Of a stretch of 64,000 bases of DNA, positions 8,790 through 63,408 are shown piece by piece. Under the pieces are notes generated by a model. That model did no database searches. It saw only the letters and a list, made by a program, of their open reading frames with translations, and was not told where the DNA came from. The stretch spans positions 40,300,001 through 40,364,000 of the forward strand of contig OX597820.1 in assembly GCA_951406725.2 (NCBI GenBank), written 5' to 3'. The translations under genes were made by a program, and so were the position numbers. The first letter of the stretch is position 1, and every line of letters begins with the position of its first letter. This DNA comes from Octopus vulgaris. Its lineage: Eukaryota.

Positions 8790-9225
8790 TCCTGGTGAGT
8801 AAGTTGACGCCCTTTATTTCTTCTCCCAATTTAGAAGATTTTGTCATCTACGCGTTTGTTAGTGTGCTTGAATTGGGGATCAAGTGGCAGAGCTGTCTAG
8901 TAACATCCTGGATCTCGAGGTTCGGACGACCTTCCTGGATCCTGAAGGTATATTTGGTACCTCTGGATGTGAGCAATACTGAAGGTGATGCATTTAGACT
9001 AGTCACTGTGTACGCTCCGACTTGTGTGGGGAAGTCAGTTTTCTGCAAATATTTCGAAGTTTTCCTTGGGAGGTCTCGCACTTTAGTTCGAGTGGGTGAT
9101 TGAAACATCATCTTGGAAGCACGCCAGGATAGGGTGAGGCTAGTCGACAGGAGAGAAGATGGAAAAGCCTCACAAAACTGTCCAGGCCCTTCCAATTGGC
9201 TGACAGGTAACGACTGGAGTTCCTA
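8790..9225 (+). pseudogene. APE endonuclease remnant of a Tx1/L1-like LINE
   Basis: FRLVTVYAPT...FLGRSRTLVRVGD*N matches the VYAP and GD(W/F)N motifs of APE domains. Confidence 0.65.
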
Positions 9226-9260
9226 AATGTTTGTTTTCGCCCCATGAGGCCAATATAGTG

Positions 9261-9337
<77 letters not shown>

Positions 9338-9410
9338 CATTGTTGTTGTTGTTGTTGTTGTTCTTGTTGTTGCTGTTTTTGTTGTTGTTGTTATTATTAT
9401 CATCATCATT

Positions 9411-10195
9411 TGGCCCCACAACATCCCAGCTATAATTTGGAAGGATGATAGATTTCAACCACTTTTGCTCAATCTTTGCAACCACACACTTTTCACTTTT
9501 GTAGCTCCAAAGATTTGGCACCAAACTCAAATCATCACAATAACACAAAAAGGCGATTTATCCCTCGTAACCAACTACAGGGGTATATCTCTAATGTCAA
9601 TTGCTGCAAAATTGTACAACAAACTGATTCTAGACCGTCTCGTCTTTTTTGTTGAACCTTTGCTCCGAAAGAACCAAAATGGATTCAGACACGGGCGCTC
9701 AACGCTGAGCCAAATACTATGCCTACGCAGACTTATTGAAGAATCAAAAGCATTTAATCGCGATCTTGCAATCGTGCTTCTAGACTTTTCTAAAGCGTTC
9801 GACTTTGTAGATAGGTACAAGATGTTTGAAACCCTTAAGCTCTATGGGATACCAGACAAAATCCTTTCTGCCATCAATGTCTTCTACACAGATACGTCTT
9901 CAACCATCTTAACCCCTGACGGAGAAACATCATCTTTCTCAATCAAAGCCGAAATACTGCAGGGGGACACACTCGCCCCATTTCTCTTCATCATTATTGT
10001 TGACTATGAGCTACGTATGTCAGTTGATACCATTTCTGGCAAGGGCTTTGAAATAAAACTTAGAAGTTCCAGACACCCAGCTGAATACTTGACATACAAT
10101 GACTTTGCTGACGACATCGCTCTTATCAGTGATTCCCGCTCCAATGCCCAGTCTCTTTTACAATCTCTCGAACAAGCCTCAAATTGTGTAGGTCT
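9411..10195 (+). mobile_element. RTE-clade LINE reverse transcriptase fragment
   Basis: KGDLSLVTNYRGISLMSIAAKLYNK, QNGFRHGRST, DFSKAFD, LQGDTLAPFLF, DFADDIAL in ORF 9231-10301; the ORF N-terminus is microsatellite and its C-terminus is a tandem repeat. Confidence 0.9.
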
Positions 10196-10196
10196 T

Positions 10197-10545
10197 GAAA
10201 TTGTTCGGAAACTTTCTGAGAAGTTCCGAGGATTTCATGGAAAGTTCCGGGGTTTCCTAACTTCCTGGAAAATTATTAAGAAACTTCATGGGAAGTTCTG
10301 AGGATTTCCTGGAAAGTTCCGGGGATTTCCCAACGCCCGGAAAATTGTTCGGAAGCTTCATGGGGGTTTCCGACGATTTCGTGGAAAGTTCCGGGTATTT
10401 CTCAACCTTCTGGAAAATTGTTCAGAAACTTCCTGGAAAGTTCCGAGTATTTCCCAACTTCCGGCAAATTTCCGAGGATATGTTACTTCCTGGAAAGTTC
10501 CGAGGATGGTACTTCGTGGAAAAATTCCGAGGACTTGCTGTAAAG
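10197..10545. repeat. Degenerate tandem array, ~70-bp period built from ~10-bp GGAAAGTTCC-type subunits
   Basis: GAAAATTGTTCGGAAACTT...GGAAAGTTCCGGGGATTTCC recurs near 10197, 10268, 10340 and 10412. Confidence 0.85.
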
Positions 10546-34071: not shown

Positions 34072-37000
34072 TCATGGGGGCTTTCTAGCAACTGCTATTT
34101 GGTGCATGAGAGAGTTCGATGCAGCTGCCCTCATCTGCCCCTCCTGCCGTGAAGTTGGTTCATCTGGGACACCAGACAGGAAGAGATCCAGCTTCATTTT
34201 AAAGACATCTGTATCCACCCCATGCAGGTCTCTCAGGTTCTTCGGGAGGATATTGAAGAGCTGTGGGCCTCGGAAGCCCAGGCTATCACAGAATCTTGTC
34301 CTACATCTTGATGGCAGGTTTGGAGTCCTAGGCACCACGCAGTGGCGCCCAGTTCTGGCATTTGTGTAACTCTCGATGCCAAAGTTCAGGACACTTCCCT
34401 CCAGGATCTTCCAGATGTATATTATGGCATATCTTTCCCGCCTACGCTCCAGGGAGTATAATTTTAATCTCTTGAGTCTTTCCCAGTAGCTTACATTCTG
34501 CATAGAGGCTATCTTCTTTGTGTAGCTTCGTTGGATCGCCTCAAGTTCTGTGATCAACTTGACACTGGATGGTGACCATAGCTGAGAGCAATAGTCAAAG
34601 TGGCTTAGGACAAGTGTCTTCCAGAGGACCATCATGGTTTCTTGTTCTCTTGTTCTAAAGGTTCTAAGAATCCAGCCAGCCAGCCGTCAACATTTCACTG
34701 TCAGTTTAGCAACATGTACATGAAAGGTCGCGTCATCACTCATGTGAATACCCAGGTCACGCACTGATTGTGCCTCTGGGATTGCAATCCCTCCGGGTCC
34801 AGTGTATTCATTGGGTATTGCATTCAGTTTTGCATGCTGATAGTATAAAGCTTGAAACTTTCCAGCATTGAACTGCATGCTATTCTTTTCAGCCCACTTG
34901 TATATTTCGTCCAGCTCACATTGCAGGTTTTTAGTGTCCTCAGGGTTCTGTATTGCCTGTGAAACTTTTGTATCATCTGCATAACTTGTGATCGTGGATC
35001 TCTGCGTGGCTGAGGGCATGTCTGAGAGGGCCATTATGAACAGTAGTGGTCCCAAAACAGTGCCCTGTGGAACACCACTCATTATTTGCGTGTTAATGGA
35101 AGTGGCCCCATTGGCTACTACCACCTGACTTCTATTCTTCAGAAAGTCGTGAAGCCATTCTCCTAGTTTTCCAACTATGCCAAGATCACGCAACCTGTGA
35201 CATATCATTCCGTGATCGACTTTATCGAAGGCCTTTGCGAAGTCGAGATATATGACTTCCACATTTGAGTGGTTGAGCAGTTGTTTCAGCACCCAGTCAT
35301 AGTGCTGCAGGAGCTGAGTTAAGCAGCTTCTTCCTGGTCGGAAACCATGTTGGGTGTCAGGCAGCAAGTCATTTTCTTCAAGGAAGGTGATTAGTTTCCT
35401 TCTGACTATTCGTTCCATGACCTTGCTGATGTGTGAGGTCAGAGAGATAGGTCTGTAGTTCTTTGCCTCCGCTCTGCTACCTCCTTTATGAATAGGGCAT
35501 ATTTTACCTTCCTTCAGTCCCCTTGGAAGTTTGCCAGCTGCAAGGAAGCTCTGAAAGAGGGACTGCAGTGGTCTTGCTAAGACTCTCTTACATACTTTTA
35601 GGAGGATTGCCGGGAATCCATCGGGGCCAGTAGCTGAGTCTATTTTCATTTCATCTATAGCCTTTATTACATCGTCTTCCTTTATCTCGATGTAACTTAT
35701 CGTCGCCGCCTCTGATTCTATATCTGCAGTGGTAAAGAAGTCAGTTGGATTGCTGATTTGGAAATGCCCAAGGGGTGGAGTGAAAACACTCTTGAATTGT
35801 TCATTCAGTATTTCACTTACCCTCATTGGTTTTCCTGTGAGTGTGCCATCCTTTTCAAGGAGTGGCCCTATCCTACAGTGCACTGTAGCCGTTTCTTTGG
35901 CATACCTGTAGAAAGCTCTGGGGTTAGTTTTTATGTTGTCTATAGCCCAGGCTTCTTTGTCTGCTCTTTCCTTCTCATGGGAAAGTTGCAGACAATTTTC
36001 AATTTCCAACAGTTTTATTTTCAGGCGGGACTTTTCACTACTTTCAATTTGTTTGTTTAGGCGATTTGAAATTTTTGTACGCCGTCTCATTAAAATTTTC
36101 CTCTCTCTGGGGATTTTGTTCTTGTGTACAGTGGCCTTTCTCTCTGGGACACATTTGTAGCATATGGCTTGCATTACAGACATGAATTGTTGAAGTATCA
36201 TGTCGATGTCCGGCGAGGAGAGACATTCAGGCCAGTTTTGTTTGAGGATCTCTTTCTCAATTTGTTTCCAGTTTGCCTTATTGAAGTTCAAGCTGGAAAG
36301 ATTCTGAGGGTTTCTTGTAGGCTGCATGTCCGTGCTCTCTTTTGGCCCGTACATGGTCAGCTCTACCATGTTGTGATCCGAGAGTAGTGTCGGTGTCACT
36401 TTCACATTATGGATGAGATCCATATTATTTGTGAAGCAGAGATCCAGTGTGTTACCTGCTCTGGTTGGTTGCAGTATTACTTGCTCCATGTACAGGGTGT
36501 TGGTGAGGTTCAGGAGGGACCTCGCCTGTCCACGTTCACATCTTGTCATTCCTGGGAGAGAAAGGCCCTCGGGCCATCTGACATTCGGTAAATTGAAGTC
36601 TCCCATGAGAAGTACACTTATGTGTTGTTCTAATGTGGTTAGAACTTCTTCTATTTTTAAAAGGCAGTCCTCGAACTTGCCCATATGACTTGGGGCATCT
36701 GGAGGGCGATATGTAGCACACACAACTACATCAAGTTGCCTTATGTGTACAATTAGTGTGTCACACACCGAGTTTGAGTATGACAAAAGGACCTGGGGTG
36801 TGAGGTCCCCACGGATGTACATAGCAACTCCTCCATGACTCCTTTCTTTCCTGTCGGTCCGTAGTACAACATACTGTGGTATGTGTAATTCCGCATCTGC
36901 TATGTCCGGTTTCAGATGCGTTTCTGTGAGTGCTATGCATAAGGCTTGATTGCATGCGACAAAGTCTCTCAGGAACGGGACTTTTGTCCTGTTACTGTGT

Positions 37001-37176
37001 GTTAGTAAACCTCTGATGTTCAGTAGGAGCATCGAGGTGAGGTGTATGCTGTTGCCGGCGTTGTCCACCCTGGGTCCATCTGCTGTGGCGGTCTTGTGAA
37101 CTGTGGGCAGTTCCATCTGCGAGCCTGAGCCTGATGGAGCCAGGTTAGCTGCTGTACAATCTTTTGTGCCATGCAC
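34072..37176 (-). pseudogene. CR1 ORF2 (APE endonuclease + reverse transcriptase) interrupted by one in-frame TGA
   Basis: LNIRGL, LTETHL, YRPP, GDFNLP, SDH; NYRPISLTS, YLDFAKAFD, GVPQGTVLGP, YADD. ORFs 34687-37176 and 34072-34635 are in the same frame and read VKC*RLAGWIL across the stop. Confidence 0.93.
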
Positions 37177-37434
37177 AAAAAAGATTCCTGCTCAGCAGCT
37201 GCCCTTTCAACAACACGTTGGTGGTTTGTGGTACGCACCACATCTGCGTACCTCCGTTTTGGGGCAGGTGATGCCTGGTCCATCCCATTTCCTTTCGGTG
37301 GTTGGTTTCTGTGGCAGGGTCCCGGATGTGCAAAGCGGCAGCCTGCACCTTCCTCTCCATGCCGGCAGGCACCTTTCAGGTAGAACCTACATACCCGTGT
37401 GCGCTGCTTGTTTCCATCCTTTTTGGCATATGGA

Positions 37435-39279: not shown

Positions 39280-39349
<70 letters not shown>

Positions 39350-39390
39350 GAAAGAATGGAGTTGAACGACGAATTAACAAAATTCCTTTA

Positions 39391-39473
39391 TTTTCGACAT
39401 ATGTATCGAATGCTGCATATTCCTAATTGCGAAGGAATAAGGAGTATATTATGCCGCTTTCTCATCAGGAAAA
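39391..39473 (-). ncRNA. Type I hammerhead ribozyme motif (Penelope-type), one core substitution
   Basis: Minus strand TTTTC-CTGATGA-[long stem II]-GATAC-ATATGTC-GAAAA; stem I TTTTC/GAAAA, palindromic stem III ACATATGT, GUC cleavage triplet; GATAC replaces GAAAC. Confidence 0.7.
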
Positions 39474-39591
39474 GCAAGGAACTTATGTCAATATCAAGAT
39501 GCACAAAAAACTTTTAGATGACTGCTCACACGGAACCCACACTACTCAAATAAATATATATACATATACATACACACACACACACACACAC

Positions 39592-39669
<78 letters not shown>

Positions 39670-39894
39670 ATGTATATGTATATATATTTATTATACATAA
39701 AATATTTGAAGAAAAGAAGGGAAAAGATACCGCTTGCTAAAAATTAAAGCGAAAGCTTAACATAACCACCAATTCTACGATAACTTCACAAGTAAAAAGT
39801 TCATTATAGGCATGTGTACATGTTTTTGTTATGTTTTAATTGCTTGCTTTCGGAGGCTATCATTTTGATATGATGAATATTTATTACTCTTTAC

Positions 39895-60735: not shown

Positions 60736-60959
60736 ATTTCTGGTGATGTGTGATTGCATACTTTGCATTTCTCACATACACAATATGCGAGTTCAAATTC
60801 AAACTAATCGTTTATGTTTTAATCAAGTACCCAAAATTTTAAATAATGTTCTTTTTTTTCAGTTTTAATTTGTCTGACTGAGATTTTACTCGTTCCTGCT
60901 TAGTGTGCTTCCTTGTGGTGGCTACTAAGCTGTTATTGTTATTGTGGTGGCTACTAAGC

Positions 60960-63408
60960 TGCTGCCAGGAAAACAGCCACTTATGTGTTTATTGCAGGCG
61001 ATTTCAATCATCCTGAGATCGATTGGGAGACCTTCCATTGGCCACAGAGTGCAAACGATTTTGTTGAGCTTGTGCTGGACTCAAACTGGTCACAAGTAGT
61101 CACCTCTCCAACAAGAGGCGACAACACCTTGGACCTGCTCTTCACCACAACTCCTGAAGCAGTTATCAATTGCACTACGGAGGAACCTCTAGGTGACTCT
61201 GATCATGCTATGATCATCGCCAATCTGGCTCTTGCGGGCAACAAAAACCTGAACCATCTCCAATCTGCTTCCTTCGATTGGAAGAGAGCAGATTGGAACC
61301 TGTACCACACTGAACTACAGCACCCAAACTGGCGTGAATTCTACAACTCTGGAGATGTGAATACTATACTCCAGAGTATCCTGGACTCAATATGGGCAGC
61401 ATGTGCAGCATCAGTGCCACGTAAACAAAAAAGAAGAACCGCCCCAAAAGGGCAATTTGGGAAACTTCAGCGGTCCGACTTGCCAGGAGGGAACGTCGGA
61501 CTGCTGAACGGGAATACAGGTTGCATAAATCAGACACCAACAGGAAGAAGCGGAATAAATCCTCCAACCATCTCAAGCAGGTGACAAAAAAGGCAGTGCT
61601 TGAATTTGAACAGTGCATAGCAGCCAATCCTGACAGCAAGGTTTTCTGGAAATATGTGCACTCAAAGCAGAGACCTCACTCTCCAGTGGGCCCTCTTCGC
61701 AACCCTCACACAAACCAGATCACTGACGACCCCAAGGAATGCGCAGAACTCATTGCCGAGTGCTATGCAAACATATTCACTGTTGAAAGTCAAAATGTAC
61801 CATCTTCACCATCACTAACAGCAAACTCCATAACAACTATGGAATTTACACCTGCAATGCTGCGACGTCACCTTCAAAATAAGCGCAACTATGCCTCCCC
61901 TGGTCTCGATGGAGTTACATACCTGCTTCTCAAACGTGGCAGGCACTTCCTTTTACACCAGCTTTCTATTTTCTTCCAGTACTGTCTCAACAATGGTGCT
62001 ACTCCGGAGCAGTGGAAAACTGCCAGTGTCATTCCTCTGTTCAAAAAGGGCGACCGCACATCACCTGTCAACTATCGCCCAGTCAGTCTCACTAGCTGTA
62101 TTGCAAAACTGATGGAATCGTGTGTCAGAGAAACACTCTGGAACTTCTGGAGCTCTCACAGTCTCATCCGACCCTCACAATATGGATTTGTCCCTAACTC
62201 CAGCTGCAGTGACCAGCTTGTCGAGTTCCTTGAGGACATTACTCAGATTACTGACAGTGGCTCATGGGTGGATGTTGTCTACCTTGACTTTGCTAAGGCT
62301 TTCAACTCTGTGCCACACAAAAGGCTTATGGTGAAACTCTCTGCAATGGGTGTGGGGGATGACCTTTTTAACTGGTTGAAATCCTTCATCCTCAGCCGAA
62401 AGGAGGTAGTCACAGTTCTAGGACAGCACTCTACACCATATGAGATGTCATCGGGTGTACCACAGGGATCTGTCCTTGGTCCCCTCTTGTTTGTGGCATA
62501 CATTAACGACATAGATGCCAATTTAAAGAATGCCACAGTATTGAAATATGCAGACGACATCAAGCTGTACCTTGAAATCAAGAGGACAGATCCTGATGTC
62601 TACAACTCTTTCCTGCAATCAGACCTAGACACAATGCAGCAATGGATCACAGACTGGCAACTGAAACTGGCTGTGGACAAGCGTACCACCATGCATTTTG
62701 GGAGAAAAAACCCTGCGTTCACATACTCCCTCCACAACACTGATATCAAGAAATCCTCTTGTGAGCGTGACCTAGGCATCACTGTCAGCAGTGATTTGCG
62801 TTGGTCAAAGCATATCTCTAAGATTGTCAGGAAGGCCGAGGGTGTCTTGGCATCACTCAGCAGGTCTTTTGTTAGCCGCTCTCCAGCCATCTATTTAAAA
62901 CTGTATACAGCTATGGTACGACCACACTTGGAATTCGCATCATCAGTTTGGAACCCCTATCTTGCACAGAACATTGACCTCCTGGAATCTGTCCAGAGAC
63001 GTGCAACCAAACGCATACCCTCCATCAGACACCTACCATATTCTGAGCGCCTTGTTTCCCTGGGCATGGATTCACTGAAGCTCCGGCGTTTGGCGACGGA
63101 CTTGGTAAACACCCACAAAGTTATCAACCACCTCACCAACAACAACACTGAACACCTTTTTGATCTCCATGTGTCTAACACACGTGGACATGCCTACAAA
63201 GTCAGAAAACAATACAGCTCCCATGACTTTCGGAAACATTTTTTCACGCTCAGAGTTGCTGAAGCATGGAATAAACTGCCTGCGTCAGTTGTTGACTGCC
63301 ATGACACTGCATCTTTTAAGGCCCTCATGCTTTCCGAAATCCGCCGAAACTACACCTGATTATATATACACTTTAGATGAGTTGTAGTGCACCTGAGCAC
63401 TGTACACA

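What the first reader, a model, noticed from the sequence alone, without database searches (positions are those of the whole stretch)
39350..39555. ~200-bp (TA)n-embedded unit carrying a hammerhead ribozyme with an unusually long stem II
Seen: on the minus strand, stem I (TTTTC/GAAAA), CUGAUGA, a roughly 55-nt stem II region with a nested hairpin (ATTCCT/AGGAAT), GAUAC, the palindromic stem III ACAUAUGU and a GUC site. The unit has no ORF and sits between TA runs. Known: Penelope-like elements and retrozymes carry type I hammerheads with short palindromic stem III that can work as dimers. Inferred: a non-autonomous retrozyme or PLE terminal-repeat family. This copy may be inactivated by the GAAAC>GATAC change.
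Basis: partly seen in the sequence, partly recalled or inferred. Interest (0 to 1): 0.7.

Follow-up and report, generated by a model that had tools for sequence, protein, structure and literature searches.

The report
Long-armed hammerhead, octopus Hydra retrotransposon stub
This 200-base piece is a likely dead stub of a very abundant protein-coding Penelope-like jumping gene, not a stand-alone ribozyme element; its predicted self-cutting RNA has an arm at least twice as long as in described relatives, and the two-ended build of such stubs suggests that both cut DNA strands likely start copying the element's RNA.

Summary
The motif is real: type I hammerhead at 39473-39391 (minus) with a 54-nt stem II region. 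It is the end repeat (pLTR) of an autonomous Hydra-type Penelope-like element with a ~900-aa RT plus C-terminal GIY-YIG frame, likely in an octopus; not a retrozyme (0 of 81 insertions tandem). 6,351 genome matches carry the long arm, 54 a shorter one. The outer stem II covaries at 7 of 12 pairs; stem III stays self-complementary in 25 of 26. GATAC is a rare later mutation (3 copies against 584 GAAAC), so this copy is likely inactive. Of 51 two-armed insertions, 50 join one arm ending at RNA site S1 to one ending at S2; this copy is a 190-nt S1 arm plus a 10-nt S2 arm, starting near a TATA/initiator-like start. Twin priming fits best. New for the clade: long arm, ~140-nt tail, no CxCX5C linker. 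The scan already noted long-armed octopus Hydra hammerheads and twin priming on other DNA. No cleavage or expression shown.

The parts
39350..39539 (-). S1 arm: 190-nt piece of the pLTR of a Hydra-type Penelope-like element, from about +11 of the putative transcript to the first TA-rich 3' end site (S1, +201)
   Evidence: 98% identical to the best genome copies; position mapped on natural copy L115
39391..39473 (-). type I hammerhead motif (stem I, CUGAUGA, long stem II, GA[T]A, palindromic stem III, GUC site at 39396)
   Evidence: sequence; covariation
39408..39461 (-). 54-nt stem II region: 12-bp outer stem with two mismatches, internal loop, inner hairpin
   Evidence: 53-55 nt in 26 of 26 subfamily representatives; 7 of 12 outer pairs change on both sides
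39405..39405 (-). A14U core change, private to this copy; predicted to inactivate
   Evidence: 3 GATAC against 584 GAAAC; the other GATAC copy examined (L104) belongs to another subfamily and its partner arm has GAAAC
39397..39404 (-). self-complementary stem III octamer, predicted dimer interface
   Evidence: three interchangeable forms (central UA 10, UG 10, CG 5) in 25 of 26 rows; the 26th is a 2-nt deletion copy, misaligned
39387..39392 (-). poly(A)-signal-like hexamer just after the cleavage site
   Evidence: AAUAAA 19, AGUAAA 6, UAUAAA 1 of 26 representatives; A-rich context, function untested
39541..39550 (+). S2 arm: 10-nt inverted piece (ACTACTCAAA) matching the element's second 3' end site (S2, +345), joined head-to-head to the S1 arm
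   Evidence: same terminus in most of 24 S2 ends listed; only occurrence of the 10-mer in the window; L058 has a like tiny arm; its last 2 bases overlap the flanking palindrome
39282..39349 (.). (TA)n target run at the S1 end
   Evidence: sequence
39549..39692 (.). microsatellite palindrome (CA)n-(TA)n-(TG)n flanking the S2 end
   Evidence: 42-nt outer arms are exact reverse complements; source of the spurious miRNA hits

Best explanation
The unit is a short insertion of an abundant protein-coding Penelope-like retrotransposon of the Hydra type, likely made when the two cut strands of a (TA)n target each primed reverse transcription at a different site of the element's RNA, and its hammerhead is predicted to be dead through one core mutation. 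Shown: the unit is the end repeat of an element with an RT + C-terminal GIY-YIG frame; copies end at two fixed sites, S1 (about 45-60 nt after the cleavage site) and S2 (about 140 nt further); two-armed insertions are head-to-head and pair S1 with S2; 5' ends pile up at an initiator-like motif 28 nt after a TATA box. Inferred: transcription starts there; the RNA runs start - hammerhead - S1 - S2 - ORF - second repeat; the element's enzyme nicks both strands of (TA)n and primes at S1 and S2, helped by TA-rich microhomology; the two cDNAs stop at random or run off the RNA 5' end and are joined head-to-head. Here the S1 cDNA ran almost to the start (190 nt) and the S2 cDNA was about 10 nt. Copies span the cleavage site intact, so the template was uncut (or circular); the hammerhead likely cuts slowly, as a dimer through its palindromic stem III or with protein help. 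The long arm is kept as a structure and likely serves as a folding or protein-binding handle; that role is a guess.
For: Autonomous parent: collinear upstream sequence with EN frame in L004/L009/L019/L020/L023; open frames of 590-907 aa in 17 of 20 long loci; L038 has 5' repeat, ORF and 3' repeat with hammerheads 3,682 nt apart, the two repeats 100% identical over 213 nt, plus an inverted copy. Hydra motifs DKT, xKDHK, YRDD, CxxC-E-N-CxH, no CCHH. Arm rule: 81 insertions taken in chromosome order from 100 listed of 584 matches; 46 of 47 close pairs and 4 of 4 long-arm pairs are S1+S2 (P about 5e-14 against 50:50; L088/L089 are one duplicated insertion); 8 of 8 pairs in older subfamilies likewise. 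In 28 of 50 pairs each arm holds sequence the other lacks, and in 14 of 46 the S2 arm lies wholly 3' of S1, which simple fold-back cannot give. 29 of 108 arm 5' ends lie at -2..+14; stop rate 0.036 per nt against 0.0046 downstream and 0.0040 upstream; TATA at -28, TGACGTCA at -41. In vitro, an anole PLE cuts and extends both strands and starts at two internal RNA sites; its hammerhead needs protein and is dispensable for insertion (PMC11167929).
Against: No biochemical or RNA evidence: start site, cleavage and dimer are untested. 22 of 50 pairs are also compatible with fold-back; one S1+S1 pair in the sample (L107) and probably one among long loci (L053); 33 of 81 insertions were scored single-armed with no tiny arm found (4 later paired, the rest unexplained or with arms too short to see). 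BLAST ends blur 5' positions by several bases, and TATA is not obvious in the oldest subfamilies. The predicted active monomer fold lies 1.3-9.1 kcal/mol above the minimum in all 26 representatives. The 10-nt S2 arm has only about 8 bases independent of the flank. The family lacks the CxCX5C linker that helps define Hydra. No tree was built.
Confidence: 0.8

Rival explanations
1. Same element, but inverted arms arise by self-priming (fold-back) of one cDNA or of an antisense template, and short copies are plain random 5' truncations.
For: Proposed for Penelope inverted repeats with junction palindromes (PMC3846280, passages); small fold-back hairpins are seen at some junctions (L132, L016); 10 of 50 pairs start within 20 nt of each other and 12 have S1 inside S2.
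Against: 28 of 50 pairs have mutually exclusive sequence, 14 of 46 do not overlap at all; strict S1+S2 pairing; eight-fold stop peak at one position.
Confidence: 0.12
2. Rolling-circle model: the hammerhead cuts the transcript to unit length, the RNA circularises, and more-than-unit copying makes the repeats; short units are early stops on the circle.
For: Proposed in PMC4209133; copies span the cleavage site intact, as a circle would give; L038 repeats are identical; the ribozyme is conserved in all subfamilies.
Against: A circle has no 5' end, yet 29 of 60 arms that reach +14 stop at the putative start; no pile-up at the cleavage site was looked for (the sample required an intact site); PMC11167929 found uncut RNA to be the main template for another PLE.
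Confidence: 0.05
3. Independent non-autonomous retrozyme of about 200 nt.
For: Most copies are short and ORF-less; retrozymes are argued to derive from PLE pLTRs (bioRxiv 10.64898/2026.07.22.740005, first fifth read).
Against: 0 of 81 tandem head-to-tail; variable 5' ends that run into the ORF; young short copies 96-98% identical to ORF-linked ones.
Confidence: 0.03

Closest known systems
Hydra clade of C-terminal EN+ Penelope-like elements, incl. Hydra-1_Obim of Octopus bimaculoides (Craig et al. 2021, PMC8557442)
   Same: RT + C-terminal GIY-YIG, DKT, xKDHK, no CCHH, CxxC and CxH round E and N, (TA)n targets, type I hammerhead near the 3' end with short palindromic stem III.
   Different: A different, far larger family: Hydra-1_Obim hammerhead has 21 matches here, proteins only 27% (RT) and 29-35% (EN) identical. 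Stem II region 53-55 nt against about 12-26 nt in the 26 Hydra rows of File S2 (my count). No CxCX5C linker in 19 of 19 frames, an Asn-rich 140-200-aa stretch instead; RWL for RWK; unit about 3.7 kb against under 3 kb.
EN+ PLE insertion layout: inverted pLTR, one-sided 30-40-bp tail, TATA + Inr in pLTR, Asn-rich inserts (PMC3846280, PMC8557442); two RT start sites in Poseidon_Ac (PMC11167929)
   Same: Head-to-head inverted repeat, tail on one end, promoter motifs, solo repeats, N-rich linker.
   Different: Tail is about 140-160 nt; the one-tail rule is nearly absolute (50 of 51) and includes non-overlapping arms; both start sites are TA-rich, whereas Poseidon_Ac starts at sites not homologous to the target.
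Metazoan PLE minimal hammerheads and non-LTR retrozymes (PMC4209133; bioRxiv 10.64898/2026.07.22.740005)
   Same: Type I topology, short stem I, palindromic stem III, predicted dimer action, thousands of dispersed copies.
   Different: Helix II far beyond the 6-8 bp called large there; no tandem arrays. A stem II region of about 54 nt has a precedent in spike-moss PLE-X1_sMoe (File S2), so the length is not unique among PLEs.

Membership tests
Type I hammerhead ribozyme | Core CUGANGA / GAAA / UH | tested here: met
   Family: 6,351 matches. This copy departs at A14.
Type I hammerhead ribozyme | Three helices supported by covariation | tested here: met
   90.3% cells paired, 48 two-sided changes against 23.4 in shuffles, slid controls 37-51%; the two-sided changes are all in stem II; stems I and III are conserved or vary on one side; number of covarying pairs alone does not exceed shuffles (169/500).
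Type I hammerhead ribozyme | Match to an Rfam hammerhead model | tested here: not met
   No hammerhead hit at E up to 10; the long insert is the likely reason.
Type I hammerhead ribozyme | Self-cleavage | not testable with these tools
   Needs in vitro transcription.
Hydra-clade PLE | Single ORF, RT then C-terminal GIY-YIG; DKT motif | tested here: met
   904-907-aa frames in L038, L039; DKT at 126, GIY-YIG at 786; xKDHK and flanking blocks match Hydra rows, not canonical rows, of Fig. S7 by eye.
Hydra-clade PLE | No CCHH; CxxC and CxH around the E and N residues | tested here: met
   CxxC at 864, CxH at 892.
Hydra-clade PLE | CxCX5C linker before the EN | tested here: not met
   Absent in 19 of 19 frames of this family; present in 110 of 120 homologues and in the Hydra-1_Obim-like copy L162. 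Filed therefore as a variant that works like Hydra.
Hydra-clade PLE | RWK motif; length under 3 kb | tested here: inconclusive
   RW kept as RWL; unit 3,682 nt in L038; the paper says 'generally' under 3 kb.
Hydra-clade PLE | (TA)n insertion and hammerhead in pLTR | tested here: met
Hydra-clade PLE | Placement in the RT phylogeny | not tested
   No labelled reference proteins were on hand.
Non-LTR retrozyme | Head-to-tail tandem units, no link to an ORF | tested here: not met
   0 of 81 tandem within 800 nt; ORF-linked.

The most novel reading that the evidence does not exclude
An octopus lineage of Hydra elements has swapped the zinc-finger linker thought to steer (TA)n targeting for RNA-encoded control: two TA-rich priming sites choose the target by microhomology, one per cut strand, and the 54-nt hammerhead arm is the handle by which the element's own RT-endonuclease dimer loads and switches the ribozyme, so that cleavage waits until both strands have been primed.
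Probability: 0.15. Interest if true: 0.75.

Novelty: new variant of a known kind. Interest (0 to 1): 0.42.

Why it matters
The copy itself is an ordinary, likely dead stub. The family matters in three ways. Thousands of predicted ribozymes with a conserved long arm escape Rfam here, so hammerhead counts in cephalopods are likely too low. The near-absolute S1+S2 pairing, with non-overlapping arms, gives genome-scale support for double target priming as the source of the head-to-head, one-tailed layout of Penelope-like elements, whose mechanism is still open, and names exact sites to test. The family targets (TA)n without the cysteine linker that was proposed to do so, a natural test of that idea.

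Tried and rejected
Rfam: no hammerhead hit; miRNA hits come from the microsatellite palindrome. Pfam: no RT or GIY-YIG family hit for two frames at E 0.1. Own covariance model returned only top-scoring close copies, no distant families. RNA: no RNA holder listed on record; contigs of four runs guessed to be RNA cover the stretch but cannot show start, end, strand or level. Naiad membership considered and dropped (EN is C-terminal). Pairing of the arm's inner strand with the poly(A)-like hexamer: median z -0.5 against shuffles, rejected. Inner-hairpin register unresolved. A founder subfamily with GATAC: rejected on the one other copy examined of two. Target-site duplication not readable in (TA)n. 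Literature searches found no paper on long-armed octopus Hydra hammerheads; the library lacks most subscription journals, and Repbase/Dfam could not be searched.

Full report
Observation. It is the only such core my scan found in the window, and the unit has no second copy there. Rfam gave no hammerhead hit.

Family. The own genome (2.8 Gb) gave 1,446 first-look candidates, 40 scored, the full-length matches 96-98% identical. An exact 30-mer across the cleavage site occurs 584 times. A degenerate pattern with a long spacer matches 6,351 places, control 0; with a shorter spacer 54, nearly all of which read as internal deletions of the long form. GATAC occurs 3 times and GACAC once. The one other GATAC copy I examined (L104) is of another subfamily and its partner arm reads GAAAC, so the change came after insertion. 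A14 is part of the invariant core (PMC3088659, passages and section 8) and A14G abolishes cleavage (PMC4889925, passages); loss of activity for A14U is inferred.

Parent element. Longer copies run upstream through a 3' UTR into a GIY-YIG frame. A thumb-region query gave 7,861 first-look candidates, 150 scored. I fetched 20 of these, chosen for long open frames; 17 have frames of 590-907 aa. L038 shows an inverted copy, a 5' repeat, a 907-aa frame and a 3' repeat, hammerheads 3,682 nt apart. Motifs DKT, xKDHK, YRDD, CxxC, CxH and the lack of CCHH fit the Hydra clade (PMC8557442: abstract, passages, section 11, supplement parts 2 and 57 of 59 and term searches). The published Hydra-1_Obim hammerhead is present as a separate family of 21 matches, which points to an octopus host; its proteins are 27-35% identical to ours. 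Of 307 homologues, the 120 listed nearly all carry DKT/S (120), KDHK (118) and a CxCX4-7C linker (110); none of 19 frames of this family has that linker. I therefore call it a Hydra-like variant; no tree was built.

Ribozyme structure. In 26 representatives of the subfamilies seen (hand-picked for diversity) the region between the core halves is 53-55 nt, against about 12-26 nt in the 26 Hydra rows of File S2 by my count; PLE-X1_sMoe in the same table has about 54 nt. The outer 12 pairs are 89% paired with two-sided changes at 7 pairs; 48 cells change on both sides against 23.4 in shuffles, though the count of pairs alone does not beat the shuffles, and kin share changes. The inner hairpin has two registers that 14 sequences do not separate. 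Stem III is an octamer whose centre moves between UA, UG and CG, all self-pairing in a dimer while unpaired in a monomer; this fits the dimer model for PLE hammerheads (PMC4209133, first half read). The active monomer fold is 1.3-9.1 kcal/mol above the minimum, often because the 5' strands of stems I and II pair with each other; for this copy 5.4.

Insertion anatomy. From the first 100 listed of the 584 matches I took 81 insertions on contigs C1 and C2 in order (two insertions already held were left out). Copies end at S1 (+201 to +216) or S2 (+345) counted from the A of a TCATT motif. 46 of 47 close head-to-head pairs and 4 of 4 long-arm pairs are S1+S2; one is S1+S1; L088 and L089 are one duplicated insertion. 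Older subfamilies: 8 of 8 pairs; among long loci L053 looks S1+S1. In 28 of 50 pairs each arm has sequence the other lacks, 10 start together, 12 are nested. 29 of 108 arm starts lie at -2..+14, an eight-fold higher stop rate than on either side, with TATA at -28 and TGACGTCA at -41. No head-to-tail tandem in 81. The window copy is an S1 arm from +11 and, abutting it on the other strand, ACTACTCAAA (39541-39550), the S2 terminus; L058 is built alike.

Mechanism. Shown: parent element, two end sites, pairing rule, start peak, structure conservation, private core change. Inferred: promoter and start in the repeat; nicking of both target strands; priming at S1 and S2 with TA microhomology (both sites are TA-rich inside the uninterrupted UTR); joining of two cDNAs; uncut template; slow dimeric or protein-assisted cleavage. 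PMC11167929 (first half read) shows both-strand extension, two start sites equal to the tail, and a protein-assisted, dispensable hammerhead for a Poseidon element. PMC3846280 (passages) describes the inverted repeat, optional tail, TATA/Inr and Asn-rich inserts, and favours self-priming.

Novelty. Element class, hammerhead, inverted layout and tail are in print. Not found in my searches: this family, its long arm, its ~140-nt tail and linker loss; supplements of the bioRxiv retrozyme preprint (first fifth read) were not seen. Unreviewed notes of this scan report long-armed octopus Hydra hammerheads and twin priming on other DNA; none matched this sequence. They are leads, not support. RNA data were inconclusive. 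Verdict: new variant of a known kind, interest 0.42.

Noticed in passing
window 34072-37191 (-): Long LINE-type frames (834 aa endonuclease + RT, then 204 aa after one stop), a near-intact non-LTR element by motif reading; not scanned against families.
   Followed up: no
window 60958-63359 (+) and 9204-10301 (+): Further non-LTR RT frames (208 + 644 aa; 365 aa).
   Followed up: no
window 39549-39692: Near-perfect (CA)n-(TA)n-(TG)n palindrome with 42-nt exact outer arms next to the insertion; gives false miRNA hits in Rfam.
   Followed up: partly
window 39387-39392 (-) and family: Poly(A)-signal-like hexamer 4-9 nt after the cleavage site in 26 of 26 representatives; S1 and S2 lie beyond it, so it would have to be read through for copies to form.
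   Followed up: partly
L160, L164: The Hydra-1_Obim-like family also seems to have two 3' end sites about 60 nt apart.
   Followed up: no
L084:1-1241 and L131:1368-1484: Two-armed insertions whose second arm appears to come from inside the ORF/3' UTR rather than S1, or was rearranged.
   Followed up: no
L088 / L089 (C1:157.58 and 157.64 Mb): Inverted segmental duplication, 96% identical over more than 3.3 kb, carrying the same insertion.
   Followed up: partly
L040, L041 (minus), L037:6513: Other hammerhead-like cores with 13-40-nt stem II regions near long copies, likely other PLE families.
   Followed up: no
PMC8557442 File S1: Naiad_Ovul and others are marked 'HHR_half_core' with the second core half 35-50 nt away; these may be long-armed hammerheads missed by the descriptor.
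   Followed up: no
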